A DNA stretch of 64,000 bases. Source: Candidatus Pacearchaeota archaeon. Lineage in GTDB: Archaea; Nanobdellota; Nanobdellia; Pacearchaeales; GW2011-AR1. The DNA is taken from positions 7,581 through 71,580 of the forward strand of contig JBNLCO010000004.1 of the NCBI GenBank assembly GCA_050303855.1. The letters run 5' to 3'. Shown piece after piece: positions 9,350 through 25,662 of this stretch (position 1 is its first letter; each line of letters opens with the position of its first letter). The notes beneath the pieces are model-generated. The model was not told where the DNA came from. It worked only from the letters and a program-made list of their open reading frames with translations, and searched no databases. Made by a program: the position numbers and the translations under genes.

Positions 9350-10630
9350 ATGATTGATATAAAGGTTGTAAGAGAGTACCCGGATTTGGTTCGGGACAAT
9401 ATTAAGAAGAAATTTCAGGATTCTAAGTTAAAACTTGTTGATGAAGTTCTTGAATTGGATGAAAAATGGAGGAAAGTTAAGTATGAGGAGGATGGTCTTA
9501 GAAGTGAGAGGAATAAGGTCTCTAAACAGATTAGCGAATTGAAGAAATTAGGTAAAAATGCCGATAAGGAAATGAAGAGGGCTAAAGAAATTCCTGGGAA
9601 AATTGAGAAAATTGAGGTTAGGAGAAAGAAACTTGAAGAGGAGAGAGATATGGTTTTAAGTAAAATTCCCAATTTTATTTCAGATCGAGTTCCTTTTGGT
9701 AAGAGTGATAAAGAAAATGTTGTTGAGAAAGTATTTGGTAAACCTAAAGATTTTGGCTTTAAAGTTAAGAGTCATGGGGATTTGATTGAAGATTTAGGTT
9801 TGGGTGATTTTGATAGTTCTTCTAGAGTTGCTGGAACTGGATTTTATTATTTGCAAGGAGATTTGGCTTTAATGAATCAGGCTTTGATACAGTTTGCTAT
9901 TAGTAAAATGGTTTCTAAAGGATTTACTTATGTTGAAACGCCTTTGATGTTAAGAAATGAGGTAATCAATAGAGTAACTGATTTGAATGATCAAGAGGGC
10001 ATGATTTATAGGATTGCTAATGATGAGGTTTCTTTAATTGGGACTTCAGAACACTCTTTAATTGGAAGATATGTTGATAAAGAAGTTGATTATAATGAGT
10101 TGCCAATAAAACAAACTTCTTATTCTATGTGTTTTAGAAAAGAGATTGGAAGTCATGGTATTGATGAGAAAGGTTTGTTTAGAACTCATCAGTTTAATAA
10201 AGTGGAGATGGTTGTAATCTGTAAACCTGAAGATTCTGATAAGTTCTTTGATAATATGAAAGATCTAACTGTTGAGATCTTTAAGGATTTGGATCTTCCA
10301 GTTAGGGTTTTGAGAATTTGTTCTGGAGATTTGGGTGATTTGAAGAAGGAACAGATTGATGTTGAGGTTTACTCCCCAAGGAAGAAAGATTATTTTGAAG
10401 TTGGTAGTTGTAGCAATTTAACTGACGCCCAAGCAAGAAAGCTTGGTATAAGTTATGTTGAGAAAGGAGTGAGGGTTGTTCCACATACTTTGAACAATAC
10501 TGCTATGGCCACCTCAAGAGCTTTGGTTGCCATTCTTGAGAATAATCAGGATAAGGATGGAAATGTTAAAATTCCTAAAGTTTTGCAACCTTTTATGGGT
10601 GGTAAGAAAGTTTTGAAGAAAATAGTTTGA
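9350..10630 (+). CDS. serS: seryl-tRNA synthetase
   Basis: N-terminal coiled-coil arm. Class II motifs FRTHQFNKVEM and GSCSNLTDAQARKL. Confidence 0.95.
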   Translation: MIDIKVVREYPDLVRDNIKKKFQDSKLKLVDEVLELDEKWRKVKYEEDGLRSERNKVSKQISELKKLGKNADKEMKRAKEIPGKIEKIEVRRKKLEEERDMVLSKIPNFISDRVPFGKSDKENVVEKVFGKPKDFGFKVKSHGDLIEDLGLGDFDSSSRVAGTGFYYLQGDLALMNQALIQFAISKMVSKGFTYVETPLMLRNEVINRVTDLNDQEGMIYRIANDEVSLIGTSEHSLIGRYVDKEVDYNELPIKQTSYSMCFRKEIGSHGIDEKGLFRTHQFNKVEMVVICKPEDSDKFFDNMKDLTVEIFKDLDLPVRVLRICSGDLGDLKKEQIDVEVYSPRKKDYFEVGSCSNLTDAQARKLGISYVEKGVRVVPHTLNNTAMATSRALVAILENNQDKDGNVKIPKVLQPFMGGKKVLKKIV

Positions 10631-11717: not shown

Positions 11718-11744
11718 CCGCCAAGATATAGATTTCTATTGTAT

Positions 11745-11816
11745 GCCTCGGTAGTTTAGTGGCTAGAACACGTGCCTGTCGCGCACGAAATCCGGGTTCG
11801 ATTCCCGGTCGGGGCG
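11745..11816 (+). tRNA. tRNA-Asp (anticodon GUC)
   Basis: Hand-folded cloverleaf. Acceptor GCCUCGG/UCGGGGC (two G-U pairs), D stem GUUU/GAAC, anticodon stem CGUGC/GCACG with loop CUGUCGC, T arm CCGGG-UUCGAUU-CCCGG, discriminator G. Confidence 0.9.
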
Positions 11817-11817
11817 T
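11806..11817 (+). repeat. att core copy 1 (tRNA-Asp 3' end)
   Basis: CGGTCGGGGCGT, identical to 22936..22947. Confidence 0.7.
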
Positions 11818-11894
11818 CTCTAGTTTTTGTCTATTTGAAGAAATGTACTCAAAATATACAGACTTCTTTTTAAGAAAGTCTGTTTTAACTACAC

Positions 11895-13049
11895 ATGAAA
11901 ATAGACCCTTACAAACACAAAGAGAGATACTTTAGTTGGAAAGAAAAAGCCATGAAGGATGGAATTCCTGGTTCCTCTGAGACTAATTCTAAGATAATTC
12001 TACAATATCTGAGTGATATGGAGCATGGGATTAATGTTTCTTTGAAAAGTGTTAAAGGCGCTAGAGGTTATCCTAGATTGAATACTCTTAGGGAGAAGAT
12101 GTTGTTTTTCACAAGAAGATTTAAGGAACTTTACGATTTGGACAATATTACGGAAGTTAGTGAGGAACAATTGCTTCTTTTATTTTCAAAGATGAGGAAA
12201 GGGGAGATTTTTAAGAAAGGAGGTCAAAGATATCTTTCTGTGAACTATTTTGTTAAATCATTTAAGTCTTTTTGGCACTGGTGGCAAACTTCTAATAAGA
12301 AGAAAGGGGTTGATGTTCAAGATATAACAATAGACTTAGATTCTAGGGGTGAAAAACCAAAATGGGTTTATTTAACTGAAGAACAAGTTAGAAAACTTTG
12401 TAATAAGGCAAAATATGAATATAGGGTGTTAATCATGTTCTTGTTTGATACTGGAATAAGGGCTCCAACCGAACTGATTAATCTTAAAGTTTCTGATCTG
12501 TATAATGATTGTAAGGAATTGCAGATTAGGGATGAAATTTCTAAAACTTTTGGGAGAAAGATAAAATTAATGCTTTCATCTGATTTGTTGAGACAATATA
12601 TTGCGGATAGGGAATTGAAGGAAAGCGATCACCTCTTTTTAATAAAGCCCGCCACGGTTAATTTGTATTTGAAGAGATTGACTGTTAGAGTTCTTGGTGA
12701 TGGTATGAGTTTGGCAGGTCAGAGATACTCTGAGATAACTATGTATGATTTTAGGCATATTTCCTGTTGTTATTGGTTGCCTAGATATAAATCTGAAAGT
12801 GCTTTGAAGTATCGGTTTGGATGGAAGAAGTCTGATAAAGTGCACTACTATTCGGAACTGCTTGGTATGAAAGACACTATTCAGGAAGAAGATTTATTCA
12901 TAGATAATACTAAAACTGAACTTGAAAGGGAACAAATTAGATTGAGTAAGGAGAATGATATCTTAAAGGAGAAAATGGATGTTATGGGTAGTCAGATGAA
13001 GGAGATCTTTGGTTTAGTTAAGGAAATGGTTGAAAAGACTAAGGTTTGA
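11895..13049 (+). CDS. tyrosine recombinase / phage-type integrase
   Basis: DTGIRAPTEL (Arg box) and YDFRHISCCYW (box II R-H). It lies adjacent to a tRNA, and its N-terminal 120 aa are paralogous to the 24367..24744 fragment. Confidence 0.85.
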   Translation: MKIDPYKHKERYFSWKEKAMKDGIPGSSETNSKIILQYLSDMEHGINVSLKSVKGARGYPRLNTLREKMLFFTRRFKELYDLDNITEVSEEQLLLLFSKMRKGEIFKKGGQRYLSVNYFVKSFKSFWHWWQTSNKKKGVDVQDITIDLDSRGEKPKWVYLTEEQVRKLCNKAKYEYRVLIMFLFDTGIRAPTELINLKVSDLYNDCKELQIRDEISKTFGRKIKLMLSSDLLRQYIADRELKESDHLFLIKPATVNLYLKRLTVRVLGDGMSLAGQRYSEITMYDFRHISCCYWLPRYKSESALKYRFGWKKSDKVHYYSELLGMKDTIQEEDLFIDNTKTELEREQIRLSKENDILKEKMDVMGSQMKEIFGLVKEMVEKTKV

Positions 13050-15135
13050 GCTTGGAAGCTCGTTTTTTAAATTCTTCTCTTAATTCGCTTTCATTTAATA
13101 TTTCTTTTACAATTTCACCTTCAGTTAAATTCTTTTCTAATTCTTCTAAAAGTGATAAATCTTTATTTAAAATTACTTTTTGTGCTTCAGTAAAAAAATT
13201 ATTCTTATATAATTCATCATTAGGGACTCTAAAATATAATTCAGTCAATCTTTTTAAAATATTGAAGTCTAAATAATCTAAAATTACTCCTAAAGGGATT
13301 TTCAAGCTCTTTTTTAATTCTTTAAAATTCTCGTCATCTATTTTTCCAACAATCCAAAACCGCCGAAATTTCCCTATTTCTTTTATTACTTTGCTCATTT
13401 TAGATGAGTTAAGATATCTTTGAAGCTTTGATATTTCTACTTTATTCTTACAAAATGAAGAATCAATCCAATATTTTGAATCCCAAACAGAAATAGATCC
13501 TTCATGATCTATAAAATTTATCCCGTCTGGAATATATTTTCCCCCAAGTTTCTGAGAACTTGGGAAAAATAATCTTAATATTTCCCCTGTATCTCCTTCT
13601 GCAAGATTTCCAAAATTTTCGGGAGTGGCTTCTATAAGCATCTCAATATTTTCTATGGCTTCTCTCCTTGTTTTTTCACTTCTTTCTTTAATTCTTCTAA
13701 AATAAGGGTTTATTACATCCTCTCTAACGCTAAAAGAACTTTCATTTTCAATAAGATCTCCTAGCAAGATTTGTACAAATTCACTATTTTCCAATTTATT
13801 TGTGTCAGACAAACATACAAATATAGGGGTTGTATCTAATTTACTGCATCTATTTAGTATACTTTTTATTGATCTTTTATCATTCTTTTTTATTATAGAA
13901 AGATAAAAAGAAATGAATTTATTTTTTAAAAGATACAAAGATGTTGCCTTTGGATTTAATTTATATAAACCTGTTATTTTTTTACTATTATAACCTTCTT
14001 TTTTAAAAAATTCTAAGATTTTATTTTCTAAGTTTCTGTCGTTTATTTCAAGAGAAAATACATCTTTCTTTTTTGCTATTTGCTCTTTTTCCAATAGACT
14101 TAGAGCTTTTTGGCATAGAAGTATATCGAGCCAAAATAATTGTCCATTGTTTGCAAATAATCTACTTACTTGTGAAGAAAGATCTAGTTTAGAATCTTCT
14201 CCAATAACAATTAAATTATTTTTTATATTATTATTTGTTAGAAATTCTAAATCCCCTTGAGATAGATTTTTATCTGTAAATTTGTATTTTATCCCAATAT
14301 CCTTTGATCCTTTTTTTATTCTTTTTAATGTTCTTTTTATTTTAATCTGAATTAATGAAGATAATCTAAGTTTAAAACTTAATATATACCTTGCATCTTC
14401 AAATAAAAAGGACTTCATCTTATCCACAGCCTCTTTTATTGATTGATTTGTATTAATGGAATTTAATTCTAGTCTAGGTGTTTGTGGGAGATTTGTTTCT
14501 TTGAATCTTATACTTTCTAAATTTTCAAAAGAGACGATCTTATCAAATTCATTTTTCATTTCCTTAATAACAACATTATTTGGAACAAGGATATTAGAAA
14601 TATCTTTAATTTTATTAGATATTTTATTAACTAAACTTACTCCAAACAATCCAGATTGGAAAAAAAGATTAAGTTTGTTCCCTCTTTTTTCAATAATTAT
14701 TGAACGTGTATAATCTATTTTATTATTTGTAGTGAATTTTTGTACTAGTTCTTTTTTTGTAGAATTTTGAACTTTAATTAACGATATAAAATTCTTATTA
14801 TTCCCAAAAATAGAGAATTGTTTGAATCTATGTGTCCCAAGAAATTCTTGCCGGAGTAATTTCAATGTTTTTCTTAATTCTTTAATTCCAAAAGAAAAAT
14901 CTGCCTCAGAAACAAATTGGTTATGGATAAAGCTCCCATAACTTTTTTTCTTAAAAATAAATAATTGTTTTATTAGGTCTTCTACGCCTTTCTTTGTATT
15001 TTGTTGTCTAATTTTTTCTAATAAGGTTTTTTCATCTTCAGTTAAATCTCGGTTATCGTAATAATCCAAGAATTTCTCAAGATTGTCATTAAAAGAACCT
15101 TCTTCTAATAATTCTACATCTTCCCAAAAACCCAT
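13039..15135 (-). CDS. large protein with C-terminal FokI-type (PD-D/ExK) cleavage domain and uncharacterised N-terminal ~500 aa
   Basis: NIEMLIEA..LGGKYIPDGINFIDHEGSISVWDSKYW..EISKLQRYL..RRFWIVGK aligns by eye to FokI YIELIEIA..LGGSRKPDGAIYTV..GVIVDTKAY..ADEMQRYV..FKFLFVSG. Confidence 0.65.
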   Translation of the reverse strand: MGFWEDVELLEEGSFNDNLEKFLDYYDNRDLTEDEKTLLEKIRQQNTKKGVEDLIKQLFIFKKKSYGSFIHNQFVSEADFSFGIKELRKTLKLLRQEFLGTHRFKQFSIFGNNKNFISLIKVQNSTKKELVQKFTTNNKIDYTRSIIIEKRGNKLNLFFQSGLFGVSLVNKISNKIKDISNILVPNNVVIKEMKNEFDKIVSFENLESIRFKETNLPQTPRLELNSINTNQSIKEAVDKMKSFLFEDARYILSFKLRLSSLIQIKIKRTLKRIKKGSKDIGIKYKFTDKNLSQGDLEFLTNNNIKNNLIVIGEDSKLDLSSQVSRLFANNGQLFWLDILLCQKALSLLEKEQIAKKKDVFSLEINDRNLENKILEFFKKEGYNSKKITGLYKLNPKATSLYLLKNKFISFYLSIIKKNDKRSIKSILNRCSKLDTTPIFVCLSDTNKLENSEFVQILLGDLIENESSFSVREDVINPYFRRIKERSEKTRREAIENIEMLIEATPENFGNLAEGDTGEILRLFFPSSQKLGGKYIPDGINFIDHEGSISVWDSKYWIDSSFCKNKVEISKLQRYLNSSKMSKVIKEIGKFRRFWIVGKIDDENFKELKKSLKIPLGVILDYLDFNILKRLTELYFRVPNDELYKNNFFTEAQKVILNKDLSLLEELEKNLTEGEIVKEILNESELREEFKKRASKLKP

Positions 15136-15168
15136 AGAATTATATTCTTTAGAGATATATAGAATTTT

Positions 15169-15771
15169 CTATTTCCACCTAGCTTTCTTCAAAGGCGTTC
15201 CGTTTAGCTTTTTACCTAAAGTATCTTTTAAATTATGGATGTCTTGTTCTTCAGTCCAAACAAAAAACCAATTCTTGTTTTTTTCACACCATTTTTCATA
15301 AGCCTTGATTTTCTTTTCCATTTTTCCATTATAATCATCATTATCTAATCCAAAATGTTCAATAATTATTATGTTGTCCCCATCTTCAATTACAAAATCA
15401 GGACGATATTCTTTATTATCTAATGTAAGCAAATCTTCATATCTTGGATGTAATCCGTTTGCTTCAAAGAAATATAATAAGAGTAATTCGGATTTTGACT
15501 TAACTTTTTGTCCATTAAAATAAAATCTCCCTTCAAATTTATCTCTAAAATCTGTTTCCTTTTTGTTTTTTACATAATCTATTTGTTTTATTTTTTTCTT
15601 TTCTTCTTGTTTTTCTTTCCAATGTTCTTTACAAAGATTATGTCCTTCTGGGACTTCTATTCCGCAAACTTCACAAGTAGGTTTTTGCTTTTCTTTTTCA
15701 TTACAATCAAAACAAAGTTCAAACCAAGGTTTCTTTGGATTTCCACATTTTGGGCATTCTGTTTTTGACAT
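15169..15771 (-). CDS. zinc-ribbon plus PD-(D/E)XK nuclease-fold protein
   Basis: The N-terminus has CPKC..CFDC and CEVC..CKEH pairs. The C-terminus has SKSELLLLYFFEANG..YRPDFVIEDGDNIIIIEHFG, a restriction-endonuclease-like core. Confidence 0.55.
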   Translation of the reverse strand: MSKTECPKCGNPKKPWFELCFDCNEKEKQKPTCEVCGIEVPEGHNLCKEHWKEKQEEKKKIKQIDYVKNKKETDFRDKFEGRFYFNGQKVKSKSELLLLYFFEANGLHPRYEDLLTLDNKEYRPDFVIEDGDNIIIIEHFGLDNDDYNGKMEKKIKAYEKWCEKNKNWFFVWTEEQDIHNLKDTLGKKLNGTPLKKARWK

Positions 15772-15813: not shown

Positions 15814-16044
15814 ATGTGTAGTTATTCACATATGCATAGGGATATACTTATGATTACAGAGGAAATTCTTAAAACTTTATCTAAGAATAAGGAATTATCA
15901 ACAAGACAAGTATCTTTGAAAGTTAAAACTCATAGGGCAGTTGCTTTAAGATCCCTAGAGTTTCTTAAAAGAATAAATTTGGTTAAAGAAAGAGAAGGTA
16001 CAGAGACGAATCGGGTTGAGAGGCTGTTTAGTTTGAAGAATTAA
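15814..16044 (+). CDS. small winged-helix DNA-binding protein (putative regulator)
   Basis: ILKTLSKNKELSTRQVSLKVKTHRAVALRSLEFLKRINLVKE follows an HTH-plus-wing pattern. The start is uncertain, as several in-frame Met codons are present. Confidence 0.45.
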   Translation: MCSYSHMHRDILMITEEILKTLSKNKELSTRQVSLKVKTHRAVALRSLEFLKRINLVKEREGTETNRVERLFSLKN

Positions 16045-16385
16045 ATTCCCAAATAATTCTTTAAAATTAAGGCGAGGCTGAAAGTTATTATAAATGTAGC
16101 AAATATTTTAATAAGAAACTTTTTGAATTTTTCTTTATCATAGTACATTAATCTTTCTGTTCTTTCTATATTTTGAGAGATATCAATTACCCATTTATAA
16201 GAAGCATAAATCAACAATATATTAAAAATAAATAATATTAATTTTCCTATAGATTCAAAGAGAATCAAAAAACCTGACTCTTTAATTGCTGGTAAAAGAT
16301 AATCTGAAATTATTGATAATTCTGTAGGTAAAGCAAATCCCAAACCAATAGCTTCCTTTATGATTATTTTTTGGGTTTTATTCAT
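16041..16385 (-). CDS. small 3-TM membrane protein translationally coupled to res
   Basis: Its ATG overlaps the res stop codon (ATGA, 16382..16385). Three hydrophobic helices. No family recognised. Confidence 0.55.
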   Translation of the reverse strand: MNKTQKIIIKEAIGLGFALPTELSIISDYLLPAIKESGFLILFESIGKLILFIFNILLIYASYKWVIDISQNIERTERLMYYDKEKFKKFLIKIFATFIITFSLALILKNYLGI

Positions 16386-18652
16386 AGTTCTTTGAGTTTA
16401 TTCAATATTTCGTCAATATTTTTATTATGAACTAAAAAGAAATGGAGGTTTTTATCTAAGGAACTCCAGATATTTCCAATTTCTTCTTTATATTGTGTGT
16501 CTTCATTGCTTATCCTATCTTCTCCTTTCCATTCTAATGCAATAATGTTCCCTTTTTTGGTTAATGCTATAAAATCTGGATAGAATTTATTCTTTTTCCA
16601 CCCTTGGATAAAGAAAGGGTCTTTCTTTTCTCTATTTCTTACCCAAAATTTAATATTATTTAATCCATCCAAATCTAGTCTTTGAACAAAATTCATTTCC
16701 TCTTTGTTTAATTTATCAACATTTTCATAATAGTTTTTGTTCCATTTTCTATCTGGTTCTTGACTTAAAATGATTGTTTCTGGAAATTTATCCAATTTCA
16801 TTACAGATATCTTCTTTTCTTTTAACATCTTTTCGAATTTGCCTTTGGAATAATCTTCTAAAATCTTTAATATTAGATCGCTTAGTTTTTCCAATAGGAT
16901 GAATCTGTTTACTGAGAGTTCTGAGATTGTTTTTTCTTTTAATTGTTCTTCAATTATTTTTCTAATGAACTTTACTTTATCTGGCTTATCTAGTAGTGTA
17001 AATCTCAATTTCTTATCTAACCATTGTATTAGTTCTTCTTTTGAGAAGTTTTTATCTTTGTAGGTTATATGGAGTGTTTGTTGAGCACTTCTTACCCATT
17101 TGTCTTTATCTTGGATATCTATTATTGCCTTGCCATCTCCATCATAAAACATCTCAAATTCAAATTTGTAATTTTGTTTTGAGAGTTCAAAGTCTTCTCC
17201 AATTAATTCTTCAAAGGATAATTTTTCTTTATCAAGGGACATTATTGGGATAAATAAATCTTCTTTGAATGATCTACTTATTTCTAGCTCATATTTTTGA
17301 TTTTTGTCTGTAGAATTAATTAAATCTAGTTTACTATATCCATTATTTTCTAGTCCTGAGATTATTTGATTTGCTGATTCATTAAAATTTTTAGCTGACG
17401 CAAAGATATAGCTTCTATTTAAAACTTCATTTTCCTTTTTTTGAGCATTAGGCATCCTTAAGACCCTTCCAATTATTTGTTCAACTGCAATTTTTGAACC
17501 GATGTTTGCCACTGAAATTAAAACATATGCAAAGGAACAGTCCCAACCTTCTGCTAGGGCATTTATTGTTATAATATATCTAATCTTACATTTTTGACTA
17601 AATAAGTTTATTCCTTCTAATTCATTCTTATTTGAGGTCTTTATTGCTATTTCCTCTTCAGGTATTTTTCTTTCTTTAATTAAAAAATCTTTGATTTTGT
17701 CTACAGTTACGCAATCTTTGTCTTTTTTATCCGATTCCGCTTGTAGAAGGGCTATGGGTCTTATATATTCATTTTTATTTTTCTTTGCTTGTTTTTCTAA
17801 TTCAATTCTTTCATTAACTCCTTTGATTATTGAATTTTGCCATTGTGCTGTACTTTCTAAGACTATTGGGAGTTTTACCATTTGTTCTTCTTTTAATTCT
17901 GAGGAATGTATCTCAACTAAAATATTGCTTTCTGTTCTAGGGGTTGCTGTATATTCTATAATAAAACTAGGATTTAGTTCCTTTAGAAATTCAATTGATA
18001 ATCTTGTTTTTGTTTTATGGCCCTCATCTATAATGATTAATGGGTTTGATATTCTTATTACGTTTGCTAGTGAATTAATTATTGTATTTTCTTCATCTTT
18101 TTCTAAGAATTCTTTTTCTTCTAAGTTTTCAAAATGACTTAGTAATGCCCCATTTTCTTGATAAACTTTATATTTATTTTGAAGTGCTCTTTCTTTTCTA
18201 AATGCTTCTAAACTAGAAATTATTATACATAAGTTGTCTTGCACATCTTCTTTTCTTATTCTTAACGCTTCCTCATTTGAGAAAATTCTTATATTATTAT
18301 CAAAAGCTTCATCCAATACTTTTCTATGCCAATCGTTTTTATCTTTAAACTTTCTTAGGGTTTGAGATTTTATGGATTCTGATGGAACAAACCACATTAT
18401 GATTCCCTTCTCCATTTTATTTTTTAAAACAGAGGACATTATTTCAACAACGGAATGGCATCCTACAAGAGTTTTTCCTCCTCCTGTAGGTATTTTCATG
18501 CAAATGAAAGGTGTTTCGTTAAAGAAATCCGACTTGTAAGGTTTATCTGTAATGCCCATAAATGCATATTTAGTTCCAACCCTTTCTAATTCTTTAAGAT
18601 AATTTCTCAATATTTCAATTGACTTTTGTTGATATTTTTTTAGTTCTACCAT
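16382..18652 (-). CDS. res: Type III restriction enzyme Res subunit (SF2 helicase plus C-terminal PD-ExK nuclease)
   Basis: PTGGGKT (motif I), IIIDEGHK (II), YTATP (III), QIIGRVLR (VI). The C-terminal YPDFIALTKKGNIIALEWKG is the nuclease core. Confidence 0.85.
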   Translation of the reverse strand: MVELKKYQQKSIEILRNYLKELERVGTKYAFMGITDKPYKSDFFNETPFICMKIPTGGGKTLVGCHSVVEIMSSVLKNKMEKGIIMWFVPSESIKSQTLRKFKDKNDWHRKVLDEAFDNNIRIFSNEEALRIRKEDVQDNLCIIISSLEAFRKERALQNKYKVYQENGALLSHFENLEEKEFLEKDEENTIINSLANVIRISNPLIIIDEGHKTKTRLSIEFLKELNPSFIIEYTATPRTESNILVEIHSSELKEEQMVKLPIVLESTAQWQNSIIKGVNERIELEKQAKKNKNEYIRPIALLQAESDKKDKDCVTVDKIKDFLIKERKIPEEEIAIKTSNKNELEGINLFSQKCKIRYIITINALAEGWDCSFAYVLISVANIGSKIAVEQIIGRVLRMPNAQKKENEVLNRSYIFASAKNFNESANQIISGLENNGYSKLDLINSTDKNQKYELEISRSFKEDLFIPIMSLDKEKLSFEELIGEDFELSKQNYKFEFEMFYDGDGKAIIDIQDKDKWVRSAQQTLHITYKDKNFSKEELIQWLDKKLRFTLLDKPDKVKFIRKIIEEQLKEKTISELSVNRFILLEKLSDLILKILEDYSKGKFEKMLKEKKISVMKLDKFPETIILSQEPDRKWNKNYYENVDKLNKEEMNFVQRLDLDGLNNIKFWVRNREKKDPFFIQGWKKNKFYPDFIALTKKGNIIALEWKGEDRISNEDTQYKEEIGNIWSSLDKNLHFFLVHNKNIDEILNKLKEL

Positions 18653-18653
18653 T

Positions 18654-19418
18654 TTAATTAATTGAATCCTCTGCTGATTTAATCATTTCTCTTATAATCT
18701 CCTTTATTTCATTGGCATCTTCATTTTTATAATTTTCAGAATGCACATATCTTGCAGAATCTCTCAAACTTTTTAGTTTAGATAAAATAGTGCTAAATTC
18801 TGGTTTAATGTTTCCTAAATTTGCCCAACTAGTCAATTTTTTCTCTATTTTTCCATGAATGCGGAACGATTTGTCATTTAAAATATCCTTATCTGGCAAT
18901 ATTAACAAAATACTCTTCGCAGATAATTCCGCAGTTGCAAAGGCATTTTCATAGAATGCCCTTAATCTATTCTTTTCTAAACTATCAATAGCAGTTTCAT
19001 AAAATTCTTTTGATGCTTCAATATGCTCTTTTATTTTCTCTTTATTATATCTAGCATCAAAGGAGATAATCCAATTATTTTTAAAAAGCAAGAGAGTTAT
19101 ATGACCACAATTAACATCTTCGTCGGTTAATTCAACTCCCCCAATCTCACCTATATCAGATTCATAGACTAATTCTCCTTTTTGTATGTCTCTAGTGGCT
19201 TTTCCATGTATAATCGCTTTGACTTCTTCATTTAACCTAATATCGTTTTTTCCTTTATCTAAGTTAAAAACAATTTGTATTCTTGTTATCGGGATTCCTT
19301 CTTTTATTGTCCTTCTTTTTATTCTTCTTTCTATCTCAGGGTTAACGAAGATGTCCATTACTTGTTGAAAAACTCTTTGTTTTGTTTCATCATCAAAATT
19401 TAATTTTTCTTCTACCAT
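18654..19418 (-). CDS. HEPN-domain protein embedded between mod and res
   Basis: The C-terminal ~120 aa follow the classic HEPN helical pattern (EASKEFYETAIDSLEKNRLRAFYENAFATAELSAKSILL..HGK..LKSLRDSARYVH). RDSARYVH fits Rx6H. The N-terminal ~130 aa are unassigned. Confidence 0.55.
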   Translation of the reverse strand: MVEEKLNFDDETKQRVFQQVMDIFVNPEIERRIKRRTIKEGIPITRIQIVFNLDKGKNDIRLNEEVKAIIHGKATRDIQKGELVYESDIGEIGGVELTDEDVNCGHITLLLFKNNWIISFDARYNKEKIKEHIEASKEFYETAIDSLEKNRLRAFYENAFATAELSAKSILLILPDKDILNDKSFRIHGKIEKKLTSWANLGNIKPEFSTILSKLKSLRDSARYVHSENYKNEDANEIKEIIREMIKSAEDSIN

Positions 19419-19419
19419 C

Positions 19420-20952
19420 TTAGTAAACTTTCACCTCATAAGGGATTTGTTTAAATTGTATGTTGAATTTTTCTAAAGTGTCCTCATCAACCATACAAAA
19501 GTCGGCATAAATGACTTTTTTATTCCTTGTTTTTTTAATTTTAGATAAGAATGACTTATTTAGAACATTTTTGTATTTTTCTTTATAAATTAAATAATAT
19601 TCTGTTTCTCCAGTTTCCCCTATGAAATTTTTATCAATTTGTTTTTTATCTATGTTTGTTTGAGTTTCTGTAAAGTAAATATAAGTTGCAAATTGGTTAA
19701 AGTCACAAGTTTCTTCTATTTGCCCGTTTTCATCAAATAGGGGTTTATCTAATTCGCAATATTCAAATCCATCTTTATAACCATATTTTTCTATTGCTCT
19801 TTTAATTCTTTCAGCTGTTATTTTTTTTGCAATATCATCTTCCATTTCAATTAAAATAAATTTTCTGTTTCCCCCATCTTCTTTATTTAAATCTAAAACT
19901 GCGTGTCCTGTTGTCCCTGAACCTGCGAAAGAGTCTAAGATTATATCTTCCCCAGAAGAGCTTAAATGAATAATTCTTTTCAAAAATGAAACTGGTTTTG
20001 GTGTGTCGAATTCCTTACTCCCCTCAAAAAGTTTCATTAACTCTTTTGTTCCCTCAGTTGCGGTTCCAACATCATCCCAGATTGTAAAAGGGTTTGTGCC
20101 TTTTTCTAATGCCTCAGACTTAAATCTTTTGTATTGAGGTTTTGAATTACCTGTCTTGCCAAACACAATACGATTGTCATTTAATGCCTCAAGATATTTG
20201 TCTTTTGTAAATCTCCAATGTCTACCTTTTGGAGGGACATAAATTTTCCCTGTGTTTTGATTTTTTATTTCGTATTCTAAATTTGGTCTTATTGCGGGAG
20301 CATCCATTGGATCAGCCACCCAATCCCCTCTAGGATCATTGTCGGGGTTTGAAAATTTACTATCATCTATCCCAAGAGAATTTAACTTCAATCCATTTCT
20401 TTTCTTAGCAAAACAAAGAGTATAATTATGGGATAATGAAACATCTATATCATTCTGGCTCGACTTTCTATGTTTCCAAATAAAATCTGCGATAAAATTT
20501 TCCTCTCCAAAAATCTCATCCATCAAAAGTTTCAGATGTGATTGTTCATGGTCATCAATACTTACAAAAATGACTCCATCCTCACTTAATAAATCTCGAA
20601 GAAGTTTCAATCTTGGGTACATCATACAAAGCCATTTATCATGCCTACATAAATCCTGAGTTTCTCCTCCAACAACTTTTCCAAGCCATTTCTTTATTTT
20701 TGGAGAATTAACTTTGTCATTATAAACCCAATTTTCATTTCCGGTGTTATAAGGGGGATCTATATAGATGCATTTTACTTTTCCAATATAATAAGGCATA
20801 AGTGCTTTAAGCCCTTCTAAATTATCTCCTTTTATAATTAGATTTTGAGAATCCCCTACAGAATGAACTTTAATCTTTTTTAATAGTCTAAATGGTACTT
20901 CTTTGTCATGATTAACAACCGCTTCTTTTCCAATCCAGTTTAAGGTGGGCAT
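19420..20952 (-). CDS. mod: Type III R-M Mod DNA methyltransferase (N6A/N4C, beta class)
   Basis: IYIDPPYNTG (motif IV), HDKWLCMMYPRLKLLRDLLSEDGVIFVSIDD and DSFAGSGTTGHA (motif I). Confidence 0.9.
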   Translation of the reverse strand: MPTLNWIGKEAVVNHDKEVPFRLLKKIKVHSVGDSQNLIIKGDNLEGLKALMPYYIGKVKCIYIDPPYNTGNENWVYNDKVNSPKIKKWLGKVVGGETQDLCRHDKWLCMMYPRLKLLRDLLSEDGVIFVSIDDHEQSHLKLLMDEIFGEENFIADFIWKHRKSSQNDIDVSLSHNYTLCFAKKRNGLKLNSLGIDDSKFSNPDNDPRGDWVADPMDAPAIRPNLEYEIKNQNTGKIYVPPKGRHWRFTKDKYLEALNDNRIVFGKTGNSKPQYKRFKSEALEKGTNPFTIWDDVGTATEGTKELMKLFEGSKEFDTPKPVSFLKRIIHLSSSGEDIILDSFAGSGTTGHAVLDLNKEDGGNRKFILIEMEDDIAKKITAERIKRAIEKYGYKDGFEYCELDKPLFDENGQIEETCDFNQFATYIYFTETQTNIDKKQIDKNFIGETGETEYYLIYKEKYKNVLNKSFLSKIKKTRNKKVIYADFCMVDEDTLEKFNIQFKQIPYEVKVY

Positions 20953-22289: not shown

Positions 22290-22415
22290 TAGCGTTCTTA
22301 ATAATTTTAATTGAACGCTACCCAGTCGCTATACACGTCGTATTTTTTTGTGTTTGGTAACTCGACCCCGTGTATCCAGTTAATAGAGTTAGTTAAGTTG
22401 TATTTAAAAATTTTA

Positions 22416-22434
22416 TGTGTATAATTGATACACA
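22416..22434. promoter_or_regulatory. perfect 7-bp inverted repeat TGTGTAT-N5-ATACACA
   Basis: Lies in the divergent intergenic region between the RHH-rep operon and the plus-strand membrane-protein genes. Confidence 0.35.
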
Positions 22435-22468
22435 TATCTATAAATATTATTTAATTTTAGGAAGAACA

Positions 22469-22849
22469 ATGGAAGAGTTTATTGAAGATATTGCAGAGAA
22501 GGGTTTGGGTTGGTTGGAAAAGAATTGGAAAAGGGTGTTAATATTTCTAGCAATTGTAATTTTATTTGGAGGTATTTTGGCTTCTATAAAATCTGATGTT
22601 AAAGATACTGAAGAGGAAATGAAAAAAGAATCGGTTGGAGTAATTGTTGAGACTTTTACTGAAACTGGAGATGCATTAACAGAAACTATTGATGATCCTG
22701 CTCTCAAAATGGAAATAAAAGGAATGTGGATATTTTTAGGATTAATGTTTGCGTTAGTTGTTGTTTTAATGATTGCAAAAGCATTCAAACCAATTTATGA
22801 TGCTCTCAGTGCTTGGCAAATTTCTGGAAGAGTTGTGCACAGAATTTAA
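22469..22849 (+). CDS. hypothetical 2-TM membrane protein
   Basis: Hydrophobic helices VLIFLAIVILFGGILASI and MWIFLGLMFALVVVLMIA. I prefer the ATG at 22469 to 22415, which overlaps the inverted repeat. Confidence 0.45.
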   Translation: MEEFIEDIAEKGLGWLEKNWKRVLIFLAIVILFGGILASIKSDVKDTEEEMKKESVGVIVETFTETGDALTETIDDPALKMEIKGMWIFLGLMFALVVVLMIAKAFKPIYDALSAWQISGRVVHRI

Positions 22850-22935
22850 GAAAAATATATAAACTTCTTATGTATTAATCTTGTATAAATAAAGTCGTAG
22901 TACATTTCTATGACTCGACAAAAACTATCTCAGTT

Positions 22936-22947
22936 CGGTCGGGGCGT
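22936..22947 (+). repeat. att core copy 2
   Basis: CGGTCGGGGCGT, identical to tRNA-Asp positions 11806..11817. Confidence 0.65.
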
Positions 22948-23017
22948 TCTCATAGTGTGAAACATTTAGGGTTTTCTTGGAAGTAATCTTTAAATAAATT
23001 AGATTAAGTGTTTTTTC

Positions 23018-23737
23018 ATGAATAATAAATCCAATTCAGAAAAACCTCTTAATTGGAATTGGACAATTTCTCTAATTATTATCACCTTGGTTTTAGCAAT
23101 CTTAATTAATGTATTTCTTGTTCCTGATCGAGAGGTTCCTGACAATTTGCCTAGGATAGTCCAAGATAATATTACTTATATTAATCTTAGTCAAAATGAT
23201 TTAGAAAATAATATTCAAGAAAGTATAAATTCTGGTTCATTTGCTGAAATCTTGTGGAAAATTATTTATCTTGGTTCTGGAAGGGATAAGCTTTGTTTTG
23301 AAAGCTTTGGAGGTTCCCCTGAATTTAACGTTTCAGTTAACAATGACTTTGGAGAATTTTATAATTTGACCAATAAAAAGTGTTTTAGCATTCCTAAACG
23401 AAAGGATAAGACTACTTTTAATTTAAAATATCATCTAATGTTAACTATTCCTCAAATTGAGTCTGGGAAAATTGTTGATAAAAGTGAGTGCCTACCAGAA
23501 ACAATAGATGAAAGCATAAATGAAACTTGTATTTTAGATGGAGTTTCTTATATTTGTCACCCTTGTTATACTTCTCCTGTGAGAGTTGAGTACGGGCCCT
23601 TGCCTGAAATAAAGACTTATTTTGAAGCTAATCTTTTCCATAAATTTATTAAATTCCTTTTTGTTTTTATTGTAACATCTATGTTTATTAAAGAATTGGT
23701 TGAAACTTTTGATTTTTTTAAAAAAAAAGAAAAATGA
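23018..23737 (+). CDS. hypothetical membrane-anchored Cys-containing protein
   Basis: N-terminal TM (WTISLIIITLVLAILINVFLV), a Cys-bearing ectodomain and a C-terminal TM. Confidence 0.5.
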   Translation: MNNKSNSEKPLNWNWTISLIIITLVLAILINVFLVPDREVPDNLPRIVQDNITYINLSQNDLENNIQESINSGSFAEILWKIIYLGSGRDKLCFESFGGSPEFNVSVNNDFGEFYNLTNKKCFSIPKRKDKTTFNLKYHLMLTIPQIESGKIVDKSECLPETIDESINETCILDGVSYICHPCYTSPVRVEYGPLPEIKTYFEANLFHKFIKFLFVFIVTSMFIKELVETFDFFKKKEK

Positions 23738-24324
23738 ATCTGGACAAAATAAATAACCTTTGGAAGAAACTTGTTTCTTGGTATGAAAAGAGAACAAAGG
23801 ATAGCAAGAAGGAAATCAATAGAAGTTTAGATTTTCTTGAATCTGATCTTTTCTATTTTTTGAAGTTGATCTTTACCAAAAAGGAAATTTATGAGGATGA
23901 TCTAATTACTAAGAGGCATTTGAGCCTTGAGCGGTTTAATTTATTGAGGGATTTATCAATATCTAGAGGTTATGTTATTCCAATGGTTGCCTCTGTCCCT
24001 CGTTTTGGGACCGTTTATGGGATTACTTCTGAAGGAATTGATTATCTCTTGGGATCTGAAAAAATACGCGCTGAGAGTAAAAGTTCGGATACTATAAAAT
24101 GGGCTACAATTGTTTTGGCAATCTCCGCTTTTGTTCAATTGGTGGATATATGGGTCAATAAACCTGAGACTAAGAGTGCTGTTCTAAATTTGATCTGGAA
24201 AACAATTGGCTTAATACTTGAGATCATTAGACAAGCTTTACCTTTTATAATTGTTTTCTCTATTTTGATTTTAATCTTAAAGATTATTAAAAAAAGGAGG
24301 AGCAAAAAAGTATTACTTAACTAG
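23734..24324 (+). CDS. hypothetical protein with C-terminal TM helices
   Basis: Its start overlaps the previous stop (ATGA). There are two C-terminal hydrophobic helices. Confidence 0.5.
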   Translation: MNLDKINNLWKKLVSWYEKRTKDSKKEINRSLDFLESDLFYFLKLIFTKKEIYEDDLITKRHLSLERFNLLRDLSISRGYVIPMVASVPRFGTVYGITSEGIDYLLGSEKIRAESKSSDTIKWATIVLAISAFVQLVDIWVNKPETKSAVLNLIWKTIGLILEIIRQALPFIIVFSILILILKIIKKRRSKKVLLN

Positions 24325-24846: not shown

Positions 24847-25662
24847 ATGGATAATGCCCAAACTTATTATATTTTCTCAGACGAATCTGGATATTTTGAT
24901 AAGAATAATTTTTATTTAAGATCTAGTTTTATGATTCTTGCAAAGGAATATCAAGAGTTAACTAGAGATTTTTTGTCTTTGAAGGATCAATTTAATATTC
25001 CTCGAAATAAAGAATTTAAGTACCATTTTTTGTACCAGGTTAAACAGTATCAAGAAAAAGGGGTGAATAAGATGAGTAAAGATGTAGAATATTTTAAAGA
25101 TATTCCTTATGCTAGTTTAATGGATTTTGTTAGATCTTCTATAAGATTGTTATCTAAATATGATGTTCAAATCCATAATATTTTTACTAAGTTTGTTCTT
25201 AAAAGATTTAAAACTCAGGAGGATATAGAAACGGATTTTATGAAAGTTCTTTTAAGTCAAATTGAAATGGATCTTCAAAATAAGACTACTCCTTCTTTTG
25301 GAGTTGTTTTTTATGATGATACCGAAATAAGAGATACTCTTTGTAAAGCATATAATCAGATATTTATGGAGGCTAAGTTTATTGAAAAATATTCTCAAAT
25401 AAAGGATTCTCTATCTTTTGATATATCTACTTACTCTACAGGAATACAACTTGTCGATTACATTGTTGGAACAATTCATAGTTTTCTTAGAGGTTATAAA
25501 GAAGGAACAGAAATATTTCATGAAGATATTTCTCCTAGATTGAGAAGAAAGAAAGGCTATACTTTAGATAAAGTGGGTTTTATTCCAAGATATCTTGCAG
25601 GAGCTCCATTTTTAGAGGAGGTTTCTAATGAAATCTTTACTAGGATAGAGAATAAATCTTGA
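24847..25662 (+). CDS. DUF3800-family protein
   Basis: N-terminal YYIFSDESGY and C-terminal GIQLVDYIVGTIHSF match the DUF3800 hallmark (DESG ... Q-x-x-D). Confidence 0.55.
   Translation: MDNAQTYYIFSDESGYFDKNNFYLRSSFMILAKEYQELTRDFLSLKDQFNIPRNKEFKYHFLYQVKQYQEKGVNKMSKDVEYFKDIPYASLMDFVRSSIRLLSKYDVQIHNIFTKFVLKRFKTQEDIETDFMKVLLSQIEMDLQNKTTPSFGVVFYDDTEIRDTLCKAYNQIFMEAKFIEKYSQIKDSLSFDISTYSTGIQLVDYIVGTIHSFLRGYKEGTEIFHEDISPRLRRKKGYTLDKVGFIPRYLAGAPFLEEVSNEIFTRIENKS

What the first reader, a model, noticed from the sequence alone, without database searches (positions are those of the whole stretch)
13039..15135. 698-aa protein with a FokI-type cleavage domain, a novel N-terminal region and no adjacent methyltransferase
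Seen in sequence: the last ~170 aa align by eye with the FokI catalytic domain. The matches are LIEA / LGG..PDG / D-S-K-Y in place of D-T-K-A-Y / LQRYL in place of MQRYV / FWIVGK in place of FLFVSG. The first ~500 aa are Lys/Asn/Ile-rich with no motif I can place. Established knowledge: FokI-type domains cut non-specifically after dimerisation and depend on a separate recognition module, and Type IIS enzymes normally sit beside cognate methyltransferases. The only methyltransferase nearby is the Type III Mod 4 kb away in a different operon. Inference: this could be a modification-dependent (Type IV-like) nuclease, or a defence nuclease with a new sensing domain carried by the integrated element.
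Basis: partly seen in the sequence, partly recalled or inferred. Interest (0 to 1): 0.7.

Follow-up and report, generated by a model that had tools for sequence, protein, structure and literature searches.

The report
Orphan archaeal FokI-like nuclease on island
A real 698-residue gene on a small mobile element in a DPANN archaeon joins a DNA-cutting domain, most similar to that of the restriction enzyme FokI, to a large front part seen almost nowhere else; it is probably a stand-alone defence nuclease, which is of moderate interest.

Summary
The ORF is real: 13039-15135, minus strand, 698 aa. The last ~190 aa form a PD-(D/E)XK nuclease core (E513, D537, D552, K554) that is conserved in all four full-length relatives.

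FokI_cleav_dom is the best Pfam match for three related queries. All three fall below the curated cut-off of 25 bits (13-20 bits; E 0.06 to 5e-4). A profile-profile alignment to a FokI family scores 26.6, against a maximum of 20.3 in 150 column shuffles. The fold test was inconclusive: AF2 gave pLDDT 64, and Foldseek returned only weak hits to restriction-endonuclease-like folds, not FokI itself.

The N-terminal ~470 aa match nothing in Pfam, PDB, PADLOC, NCBIfam or PHROGs.

The family is tiny, with five clusters among 1.84 billion representatives. At least three of the five are archaeal, and one of those three and the other two may be.

The host is a Woesearchaeota-like DPANN archaeon. The gene is the first cargo gene beside a tyrosine integrase in a ~11 kb element at tRNA-Asp. 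No methyltransferase partner is conserved across relatives.

Best reading: a methyltransferase-independent, Type IIS-like restriction or defence nuclease with a new recognition region. Dependence on DNA modification is untested.

The parts
13039..15135 (-). Whole gene: 698 codons plus stop. Member of an orphan family of ~700-aa proteins.
   Evidence: ORF list and translation. An exhaustive phmmer search found only 4 other clusters: P0002-P0005.
13726..15135 (-). N-terminal region, residues 1-470. It has three predicted modules (about 1-185, 186-312 and 313-470), no detectable homology, and is the presumed target-recognition part.
   Evidence: No Pfam, NCBIfam, PADLOC, PHROGs or PDB hits, even with consensus sequences. 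No internal repeats. Identity to P0004 and P0005 is only 18-27%, against 30-36% for the nuclease core. AF2 predicts alpha+beta modules with pLDDT from about 40 to 85.
13606..13725 (-). Long connecting helix, residues 471-510.
   Evidence: AF2 secondary structure gives a helix at 471-502. hhalign aligns it to the N-terminal helices of the FokI cleavage domain.
13216..13605 (-). PD-(D/E)XK nuclease core, residues 511-640, with predicted order alpha-beta-beta-beta-alpha-alpha-beta-alpha-beta.
   Evidence: Predicted secondary structure. Residues conserved in 4 of 4 full-length relatives. FokI_cleav_dom is the top Pfam hit but sub-threshold. hhalign score against shuffles. PADLOC REase_II PDLC03477 at E 4.6e-4, profile positions 403-517 of 616.
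13474..13527 (-). Catalytic codons: D537 (13525-13527, in 'IPDG'), D552 (13480-13482) and K554 (13474-13476, in 'WDSKYW'). The upstream acidic residue E513 is at 13597-13599.
   Evidence: Codon coordinates checked. D537, D552 and K554 are invariant in alignments A2 and A4. hhalign aligns them with the FokI PD...D-T-K motif.
13039..13215 (-). C-terminal helical tail, residues 641-698, plus stop. It overlaps the 3' end of the integrase gene by 11 nt in convergent orientation.
11895..13049 (+). Tyrosine integrase of the element (384 aa).
   Evidence: Pfam Phage_integrase, E 5e-10. It is 61%, 57% and 49% identical to the integrases in L007, L013 and L003.
11744..11818 (+). tRNA-Asp(GTC), the integration target. 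Its 3' end at 11806-11817 is the candidate attL core.
   Evidence: ARAGORN and Rfam. A 12-nt exact repeat with 0 expected in shuffles.
22936..22947 (+). Candidate attR core, CGGTCGGGGCGT. It is an exact copy of the tRNA-Asp 3' end and bounds an element of about 11.1 kb.
15169..15771 (-). Upstream neighbour, 33 bp away on the same strand: a 200-aa protein with two zinc ribbons and a small PD-(D/E)XK domain. It is not conserved beside the relatives.
   Evidence: Pfam DZR at sub-threshold scores. PADLOC PDC-S68 at 2e-13 and HEAT_CxxC_PD-DEXK at 3e-6. No tblastn match in L002, L003, L004 or L007.
16382..20952 (-). Type III restriction-modification module of the same element: Mod (19420-20952), a HEPN protein (18654-19418) and Res (16382-18652). 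It is a separate and complete system.

Best explanation
The gene encodes a stand-alone DNA endonuclease with no dedicated methyltransferase. It is built like a Type IIS enzyme and is carried as accessory cargo by a ~11 kb integrative element at tRNA-Asp in a Woesearchaeota-like DPANN archaeon.

Proposed mechanism:
1. The fast-evolving N-terminal ~470 aa recognise the target, which would be a DNA sequence, structure or modification absent from host DNA.
2. A long helix (residues 471-502) tethers that region to a C-terminal PD-(D/E)XK cleavage domain of the FokI type. The domain has one active site (E513, D537, D552, K554).
3. Like FokI, the domain would have to pair with a second copy to cut both strands near the bound site.
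4. The biological role would be defence of the host and element against viruses or rival mobile elements, alongside the element's Type III restriction-modification system.

Shown here: the gene and family are real; the catalytic motif is conserved; FokI is the nearest detectable relative; the N-terminus is novel; the gene is variable cargo next to an integrase; no methyltransferase partner is conserved.

Inferred: DNA binding by the N-terminus, dimerisation, what is recognised, and the defence role.
For: - Real gene with a conserved start and 4 related clusters.
- GG-x3-PD ... W-D-[SA]-K-x-W ... E-x2-K-x3-Y is invariant in four full-length relatives.
- FokI_cleav_dom is the top Pfam hit for three related queries, with E values from 0.062 to 5e-4.
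- hhalign against the FokI family scores 26.6, P 0.0034, and 0 of 150 shuffles reach it.
- PADLOC Type II REase model PDLC03477 matches at E 4.6e-4, in the C-terminal region of a 616-position profile.
- The weak Foldseek hits include several restriction-endonuclease-like folds: Bax1, EcoT38I and the FokI-like Nt.BspD6I. [quoted passage not shown]
- The nuclease core is 30-43% identical between relatives. The N-terminal modules are 18-27% identical to the distant relatives (P0004, P0005). This is the pattern expected for a conserved catalytic module joined to a diversifying specificity module.
- Context is always a defence or restriction-modification island next to a tyrosine integrase. The window has Type III R-M. 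L002 has a DpnII cassette. L003 has GmrSD, two methyltransferases and an HNH nuclease.
- A related element at the same tRNA-Asp site (L013, integrase 57% identical) carries an orphan methyltransferase in this slot instead. The gene is therefore accessory cargo.
- No methyltransferase is conserved beside relatives, and none lies within 10 kb in L088.
- The FokI mechanism (N-terminal recognition, C-terminal single-site cleavage domain, dimerisation) is as summarised in PMC3479186.
Against: - The FokI link is below Pfam's curated threshold, and hhalign gives a probability of only 9.5%.
- Two distant relatives (P0004, P0005) do not hit PF09254 on their own.
- The AF2 model is of modest quality (pLDDT 64, pTM 0.34). 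Foldseek gave no hit at E below 1e-3 and FokI was not in the top 50.
- Nothing shows that the N-terminus binds DNA.
- No hit to any known defence-system model.
- Only 4-5 lineages exist, so the context statistics are thin.
- In one lineage the gene is split by a frameshift. Selection to keep it is therefore not universal.
Confidence: 0.45

Rival explanations
1. It is an ordinary Type IIS (or other Type II) restriction endonuclease that depends on a cognate methyltransferase. That methyltransferase is either one of the nearby ones or has been lost, leaving an orphan or decaying gene.
For: Methyltransferases lie close to two relatives. In L002 a D12-class methyltransferase is the divergent neighbour 200 bp away. 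In L003 a C5 and a D12 methyltransferase lie three and two genes upstream on the same strand. The P0002/P0027 copy, which has no methyltransferase within 10 kb, is frameshifted, as expected for an unprotected restriction gene. The best PADLOC hit is a Type II REase model.
Against: The L002 and L003 D12 methyltransferases share no detectable similarity with each other. They are already accounted for by complete cassettes: DpnII with its two methyltransferases, and an HNH nuclease with methyltransferases. The window element has only a Type III Mod, paired with its own Res. The window gene is intact with all catalytic residues. No FokI-type recognition domains (PF02980, PF02981, PF16902) are detectable in the N-terminus.
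Confidence: 0.12
2. It is an infection- or stress-triggered effector of the abortive-infection or toxin type rather than a restriction enzyme. The N-terminal region would sense a protein or nucleic-acid cue and release a non-specific FokI-like nuclease that degrades DNA indiscriminately.
For: The gene is solitary in defence-island contexts. A large uncharacterised N-terminus joined to a generic nuclease effector is a common layout for such systems (general knowledge). A PemK toxin-antitoxin pair lies nearby in L088. Weak Foldseek resemblances include RnlA NRD-HEPN and lambda RexA, both components of phage-exclusion systems.
Against: Those Foldseek hits are not significant and the model is weak. 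There is no NTPase, STAND, TIR, CARF or other known sensor module. No antitoxin or partner gene is conserved.
Confidence: 0.2
3. It serves the mobile element itself, not host defence. It could be a nuclease working with the integrase lineage in excision, replication or stabilisation (addiction), or a selfish homing-type nuclease.
For: It is adjacent to a tyrosine integrase in 4 of 5 lineages: window, L002, L003 and L007/L090. Three of those integrases are 49-61% identical. The family's divergence follows the same rank order as the integrases'. The element also carries a Rep_1 rolling-circle initiator.
Against: A related element at the same tRNA-Asp site, with an integrase of the same lineage, lacks the gene (L013). 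The L002 integrase is unrelated. Position and orientation relative to the integrase differ in every locus. The L088 copy has no integrase nearby.
Confidence: 0.12

Closest known systems
FokI and other Type IIS restriction endonucleases with a FokI-type cleavage domain (Pfam PF09254; also the BstF5I/BtsCI group and the Nt.BspD6I/Nt.BstNBI group)
   Same: The overall layout matches: a large N-terminal part followed by a ~200-aa C-terminal PD-(D/E)XK domain. The motifs E...LGG-x3-PDG...D-[ST]-K...RY...hydrophobic strand-G are co-linear with nearly the same spacing. FokI_cleav_dom is the best Pfam hit, and the profile-profile score is well above shuffles. Nt.BspD6I appears among the weak Foldseek hits over 520-580 columns.
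   Different: Scores are below the curated family threshold. The N-terminal region shows no similarity to the FokI D1-D3 recognition domains. There is no cognate methyltransferase. The host is a DPANN archaeon and the gene rides on an integrative element. The segment between the RY helix and the next strand is about 10 residues shorter than in FokI.
MspJI-family Type IV (modification-dependent) enzymes
   Same: [quoted passage not shown] MspJI cuts at a fixed distance, and this FokI-like organisation is described in PMC3479186.
   Different: No SRA-like or other modification-reader domain was detected. There is no sequence similarity to MspJI family models in Pfam or PADLOC. The protein is much larger (698 aa). 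Modification dependence is untested. Relatives sit beside m6A and m5C methyltransferases, which argues against a broad m6A- or m5C-dependent specificity.
Bax1 (archaeal XPB-associated nuclease) and other multidomain proteins with a restriction-endonuclease-like nuclease domain
   Same: Bax1 gives the top Foldseek PDB hits: 7 chains from two species, best E 1e-3, about 500 aligned columns. [quoted passage not shown]
   Different: TM-scores are about 0.1-0.17, identity is about 10%, and no sequence signal exists. There is no XPB helicase partner. The genomic context is a mobile defence island, not DNA repair.

Membership tests
PD-(D/E)XK (restriction-endonuclease-like) nuclease superfamily | Catalytic signature: an acidic residue in helix 1, (P)D at the start of strand 2, and (D/E)-x-K in strand 3. 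| tested here: met
   E513, P536-D537 and D552-S-K554 are present. D537, D552 and K554 are invariant in all 4 full-length relatives.
PD-(D/E)XK (restriction-endonuclease-like) nuclease superfamily | [quoted passage not shown] | tested here: inconclusive
   AF2 predicts secondary structure in the right order: H511-523, E528-532, E535-542, E548-556, H559-575, E590-597. pLDDT is only about 56-82. Foldseek hits to REase-like folds are all above E 1e-3.
FokI cleavage domain family (Pfam PF09254) | Score at or above the curated gathering threshold of 25 bits. | tested here: not met
   13.2 bits (window), 17.0 bits (repaired P0002) and 19.9 bits (family consensus). It is the top Pfam hit each time, but sub-threshold. 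P0004 and P0005 alone give no hit.
FokI cleavage domain family (Pfam PF09254) | Profile-level homology to bona fide FokI-domain proteins. | tested here: inconclusive
   hhalign of the 4-sequence family against a 21-sequence FokI alignment: score 26.6, P 0.0034, probability 9.5%, 72 columns. 0 of 150 column shuffles reach it; their maximum is 20.3.
FokI cleavage domain family (Pfam PF09254) | Structural superposition on FokI (1FOK, 2FOK), including the dimerisation helices. | tested here: inconclusive
   FokI is not among the top 50 Foldseek PDB hits for a full-length model of modest quality.
Type IIS restriction-modification system (FokI-like) | Recognition domains of the FokI type (PF02980, PF02981, PF16902). 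| tested here: not met
   No Pfam hit at E below 10 for the N-terminal region or its consensus modules.
Type IIS restriction-modification system (FokI-like) | A cognate methyltransferase encoded beside the endonuclease and conserved among relatives. | tested here: not met
   The window element has only a Type III Mod, paired with its own Res. The methyltransferases near L002 and L003 are unrelated to each other. None lies within 10 kb in L088.
Type IV (modification-dependent) restriction enzymes | Cleavage requires modified DNA. | not testable with these tools
   This needs biochemistry on modified versus unmodified substrates.
Type IV (modification-dependent) restriction enzymes | A known modification-reader or Type IV module (SRA-like, Mrr_N/Mrr_cat, McrB-N, GmrSD, EVE/YTH and similar). 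| tested here: not met
   No such Pfam, NCBIfam or PADLOC hit.
Known anti-phage defence systems (PADLOC-DB v2, including Lamassu effector variants) | A significant match to a system component model. | tested here: not met
   0 hits for the window protein, P0004 and P0005. The consensus C-terminus gives only a weak hit to REase_II.

The most novel reading that the evidence does not exclude
The ~470-aa N-terminal region is a previously undescribed DNA-recognition or sensing architecture, confined to a few lineages that appear to be DPANN archaea. It would direct a FokI-type cleavage module without any protective methyltransferase. This would be a new class of solitary archaeal restriction or defence nuclease, either modification- or structure-dependent, or with a new mode of sequence reading. 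It could also supply a new recognition scaffold fused naturally to the nuclease used in genome-editing chimeras.
Probability: 0.25. Interest if true: 0.6.

Novelty: new variant of a known kind. Interest (0 to 1): 0.38.

Why it matters
Defence systems of DPANN archaea are poorly known. These are tiny, host-dependent cells with reduced genomes, and they cannot yet be studied genetically.

This gene shows that a small integrative element at tRNA-Asp carries two things into such a genome. One is a Type III restriction-modification system. The other is an orphan modular nuclease whose catalytic end resembles FokI and whose recognition end has no known relative.

If the N-terminus proves to be a new DNA-recognition or modification-sensing module, it would add a new solitary restriction type. 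It would also give a naturally FokI-coupled binding scaffold.

If it is simply a divergent Type II/IV enzyme, the finding is a routine though rare addition to the restriction enzyme catalogue.

Tried and rejected
**Sequence and family searches**
- Direct phmmer searches against PDB with the protein, the C-terminal profile and the full-length profile found nothing, or only a chance TIM-3 hit at E 1.7.
- The word-indexed 5.8-billion-protein search returned only the query itself, both with the single sequence and with the 5-sequence profile. Lys-, Asn- and Ile-rich words probably saturated the candidate list.
- tblastn against the phage and plasmid collections found no match.
- Four IMG/VR scans (P0001, P0004, P0005 and the integrase alignment) found no relatives.
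- The genome-contig scan with P0001 found none.
- The alignment-based locus search failed because no 7-10-column block is conserved enough.

**Structure**
- Single-sequence AF2 was useless, at pLDDT 34.6.
- The repaired full-length P0002 could not be included in the structure job's alignment.
- Foldseek against BFVD gave nothing interpretable.

**Hypotheses tested and rejected**
- *Internal domain duplication, or a second degenerate nuclease domain in residues 313-470.* hhalign between modules found nothing except an artefact of overlapping segment boundaries.
- *A two-gene system with the upstream 200-aa zinc-ribbon/PD-(D/E)XK protein.* That protein is absent from all loci carrying relatives.
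- *A shared Dam-like methyltransferase partner in L002 and L003.* The two D12 methyltransferases are not similar.

**Controls**
- Single-sequence hhalign controls against other nucleases of these loci scored 11-17, against 18.6 for FokI. The margin is small, so only the profile-level test carries weight.


Full report

The window holds an uninterrupted ORF on the minus strand at 13039..15135, with an ATG start and 698 codons. In a genome of about 31% G+C, where stop codons are frequent, an ORF of this length is not a chance event. The protein also has relatives that share its N-terminus, 'MG[FIL]WED[VL]E'.

- LIEA at 500-503
- LGGKYIPDG at 530-538
- DSKY at 552-555
- LQRYL at 571-575
- FWIVGK at 593-598

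I checked the FokI cleavage-domain sequence that I supplied. It is 98% identical to a deposited zinc-finger-nuclease FokI domain and retrieves 21 PF09254-annotated proteins.

**2. How good is the FokI similarity?**

Pairwise methods give little:
- BLASTP finds only the LGG..PDG segment, at E 0.11.
- phmmer against PDB finds nothing.

Profile methods give a consistent but sub-threshold signal. FokI_cleav_dom (PF09254) is the top Pfam hit in each case below, and all scores lie under the curated 25-bit cut-off.

| Query | E-value | Bits |
|---|---|---|
| Window C-terminus | 0.062 | 13.2 |
| Frame-repaired P0002 C-terminus | 0.0041 | 17.0 |
| Four-sequence family consensus (aligned to profile positions 6-103 of 188) | 5.2e-4 | 19.9 |

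The two most distant relatives do not hit PF09254 on their own.

hhalign of the four-sequence family against a 21-sequence FokI-domain alignment gives score 26.6, P 0.0034 and probability 9.5% over 72 columns. Those columns span E...GG-x3-PDG...D-x-K...RY. In 150 column shuffles of the family alignment the mean score was 13.1, the sd 2.4 and the maximum 20.3. The reversed alignment scored 13.4.

PADLOC's Type II REase model PDLC03477 matches the consensus at E 4.6e-4. The match falls at positions 403-517 of a 616-position profile, which is where a FokI-type enzyme carries its catalytic core.

FokI is the nearest detectable family. Membership by curated criteria is not met.

**3. The nuclease core**

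Three full-length relatives were available: P0004, P0005 and the repaired P0002. All of them keep GG-x3-[IV]PD, W-D-[SA]-K-x-W, E-x2-K-x3-Y and the hydrophobic strand followed by G.

An AF2 model built on the 5-row alignment has mean pLDDT 64 and pTM 0.34, with about 56-82 in the C-terminal domain. It places the key residues as follows:
- E513 on a helix (511-523)
- LGG on strand 528-532
- P536-D537 at the start of strand 535-542
- D552 and K554 on strand 548-556
- then helices 559-575 and 578-587, strand 590-597, helix 601-610 and strand 618-623

This is the canonical PD-(D/E)XK order.

Foldseek against PDB gave no hit below E 1e-3, and FokI itself was not in the top 50. The weak hits are nonetheless enriched for restriction-endonuclease-like folds:
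- seven Bax1 chains, best E 1e-3
- EcoT38I, probability 1.0 and E 0.017
- the FokI-like Nt.BspD6I, E 0.12 over 520-580 columns

It does not contradict the reading.

**4. The N-terminal ~470 residues**

Nothing significant turned up in Pfam, NCBIfam, PADLOC or PHROGs, or in sequence searches of PDB. This holds for the native sequence and for consensus sequences of three predicted modules. There are no internal repeats and there is no second nuclease-like module.

The region evolves faster than the nuclease core. Identity to P0004 and P0005 is 18-27%, against 30-36% for the core. That pattern is expected for a specificity module.

Some Foldseek hits of moderate probability but non-significant E-value point to TBP-like or RdgC-like alpha+beta folds: CENP-N, RnlA NRD, lambda RexA and KA1 domains. 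I treat these only as a lead.

**5. Rarity and host**

An exhaustive HMMER search of 1.84 billion cluster representatives found four related clusters:
- P0002: 36% identity, N-terminal 507 aa
- P0003: a 191-aa remnant
- P0004: 728 aa, 28% identity
- P0005: 719 aa, 26% identity

Each cluster has 1-3 members, annotated 'hypothetical protein' or left unnamed.

The window's seryl-tRNA synthetase is most similar to those of Candidatus Woesearchaeota MAGs (70%, 61% and 58% identity) and then to other Nanoarchaeota and Pacearchaeota. The host is therefore a DPANN archaeon.

The loci holding P0027 and P0029 carry archaeal markers: S3Ae, thermosome and aEF-1alpha. The hosts of L002 (P0004) and L003 (P0005) were not identified, so those two clusters are not shown to be archaeal.

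**6. Genomic setting**

The gene order around the target is:
- serS (9350-10630)
- tRNA-Asp (11744-11818)
- tyrosine integrase (11895-13049, plus strand)
- the target (minus strand, convergent with the integrase, 11-nt overlap)
- a 200-aa zinc-ribbon/PD-(D/E)XK protein
- a 76-aa ORF on the opposite strand, with a weak winged-helix signal
- a 114-aa ORF
- Type III Res
- a HEPN protein
- Type III Mod
- a Rep_1 rolling-circle initiator
- an Arc/RHH-like protein

The last 12 nt of the tRNA (CGGTCGGGGCGT, 11806-11817) recur exactly at 22936-22947, with 0 occurrences expected in shuffles. This gives candidate att sites bounding an element of about 11.1 kb. G+C falls to 26-28% inside the element.

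Two comparisons support the element's mobility:
- A Woesearchaeota relative (L010) has serS and tRNA-Asp without an integrase.
- A Nanoarchaeota MAG (L013) has an integrase 57% identical at the same tRNA-Asp. The slot beside it holds an orphan N6/N4 methyltransferase plus an RHH protein instead of the target.

The target is therefore variable cargo, not a core gene of the element.

**7. Context of relatives, and the methyltransferase question**

- P0004 (L002) lies between a DpnII cassette (DpnII plus D12 and N6/N4 methyltransferases) and an unrelated integrase.
- P0005 (L003) follows GmrSD, DUF2779, a C5 methyltransferase, a D12 methyltransferase, an HNH nuclease and a 284-aa unknown protein. 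It precedes an integrase 49% identical to the window's.
- The P0003 remnant (L007, L090, L091) directly follows an integrase 61% identical to the window's, in an element that also has Rep_1.
- P0002/P0027 (L004-6, L088-9) lies in an archaeal chromosome between SRP54 and FtsY. No integrase or methyltransferase lies within 10 kb.

The two D12 methyltransferases share no detectable similarity, and the window's neighbours are absent from the other loci. No methyltransferase or other partner is conserved.

One caution applies. Two of the four informative contexts do have methyltransferases within 0.2-3 kb, and the sample is very small.

**8. Most likely mechanism**

Shown:
- a real, rare gene
- a conserved single PD-(D/E)XK active site, closest to the FokI cleavage domain
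- a large, fast-evolving and novel N-terminus joined to it by a long helix
- accessory cargo in defence and restriction-modification islands on integrative elements
- no conserved methyltransferase

Inferred: the N-terminus recognises DNA, whether by sequence, structure or modification. The cleavage domain then acts after pairing with a second copy, as in FokI (mechanism summarised in PMC3479186). The protein works as a methyltransferase-independent restriction or defence nuclease.

Modification dependence (Type IV) is one way to achieve self-tolerance without a methyltransferase. Relatives sit beside m6A and m5C methyltransferases, which argues against a broad m6A or m5C specificity. I give the Type IV sub-hypothesis about 0.2.

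The rivals are a conventional Type IIS enzyme with a lost or nearby methyltransferase, a triggered abortive-infection-type effector, and a function serving the element itself. They are scored in the report sections.

**9. Comparison and novelty**

In architecture the protein works like a Type IIS or MspJI-style modular nuclease. It is not a demonstrated member of PF09254, of any Type IIS restriction-modification system, of any Type IV family, or of any PADLOC system.

I class it as a new variant of a known kind: a modular restriction-type nuclease with a FokI-like catalytic end and an unprecedented recognition end, found in DPANN archaeal mobile elements.

A specialist would find it plausible rather than startling. 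Its value lies in the orphan N-terminal region and in what it says about the DPANN defence repertoire.

Noticed in passing
L004 2604-2614 (also L005, L006); L088 11544-11553; L089: The P0002/P0027 relative is split exactly at the linker before the nuclease domain by a poly-A tract. The tract is A11 in three ENA assemblies and A10 in a JGI and a Logan assembly. The DNA is otherwise identical over 3.4 kb. Both lengths are out of frame, and A9 or A12 would restore a ~690-aa protein. The downstream frame still encodes an intact nuclease core (40% identity to the window's). Possible explanations are phase variation, rescue by transcriptional slippage, decay, or homopolymer assembly error.
   Followed up: partly
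window 11806-11817 and 22936-22947: A 12-nt exact direct repeat of the tRNA-Asp 3' end (CGGTCGGGGCGT), with 0 occurrences expected by chance. These are candidate attL and attR sites of a ~11.1 kb integrative element carrying an integrase, a Rep_1 initiator, an Arc/RHH-like protein, Type III restriction-modification and two extra nucleases. Related genomes show an empty site (L010) and a differently loaded element (L013).
   Followed up: partly
window 18654-19418 (-): A 254-aa protein with a HEPN domain (Pfam E 2.3e-4, just under threshold) is encoded between the Type III Mod and Res genes with tight spacing. This is an unusual insertion into a Type III operon.
   Followed up: no
window 15169-15771 (-): A 200-aa protein with two CxxC zinc ribbons and a small C-terminal PD-(D/E)XK domain (motif 'RPDF...IIIEHFG'). 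It matches the C-terminal 100 positions of the PADLOC candidate PDC-S68 (E 2e-13) and HEAT_CxxC_PD-DEXK (E 3e-6). It lies 33 bp upstream of the target but is not conserved beside the target's relatives.
   Followed up: partly
window 16041-16385 (-) and 15814-16044 (+): A 114-aa ORF overlaps the end of Res by 4 nt and has no family match. A 76-aa ORF on the opposite strand, with weak winged-helix hits (E about 0.06), separates the Type III unit from the two downstream nuclease genes.
   Followed up: no
window 15136-15168: The 33-bp spacer before the target's ATG contains TATATAT at about -26 to -20, preceded by AAAA. This fits an archaeal TATA/BRE promoter for a leaderless transcript, but such a match is weak evidence in an AT-rich genome.
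   Followed up: no
window 24847-25662 (+): A DUF3800 protein and several ORFs without family matches (22415-24324) lie just at or outside the candidate attR. The true right-hand boundary of the foreign DNA may extend beyond 22947.
   Followed up: no
L007 5758-7515; L090 and L091 62-1819: Only the first ~153 residues of a family member survive (P0003/P0029). They start 10-30 bp after the stop of an integrase 61% identical to the window's, and in the opposite orientation relative to the integrase compared with the window. This may be a rearrangement or a remnant of a tandem or older element.
   Followed up: partly
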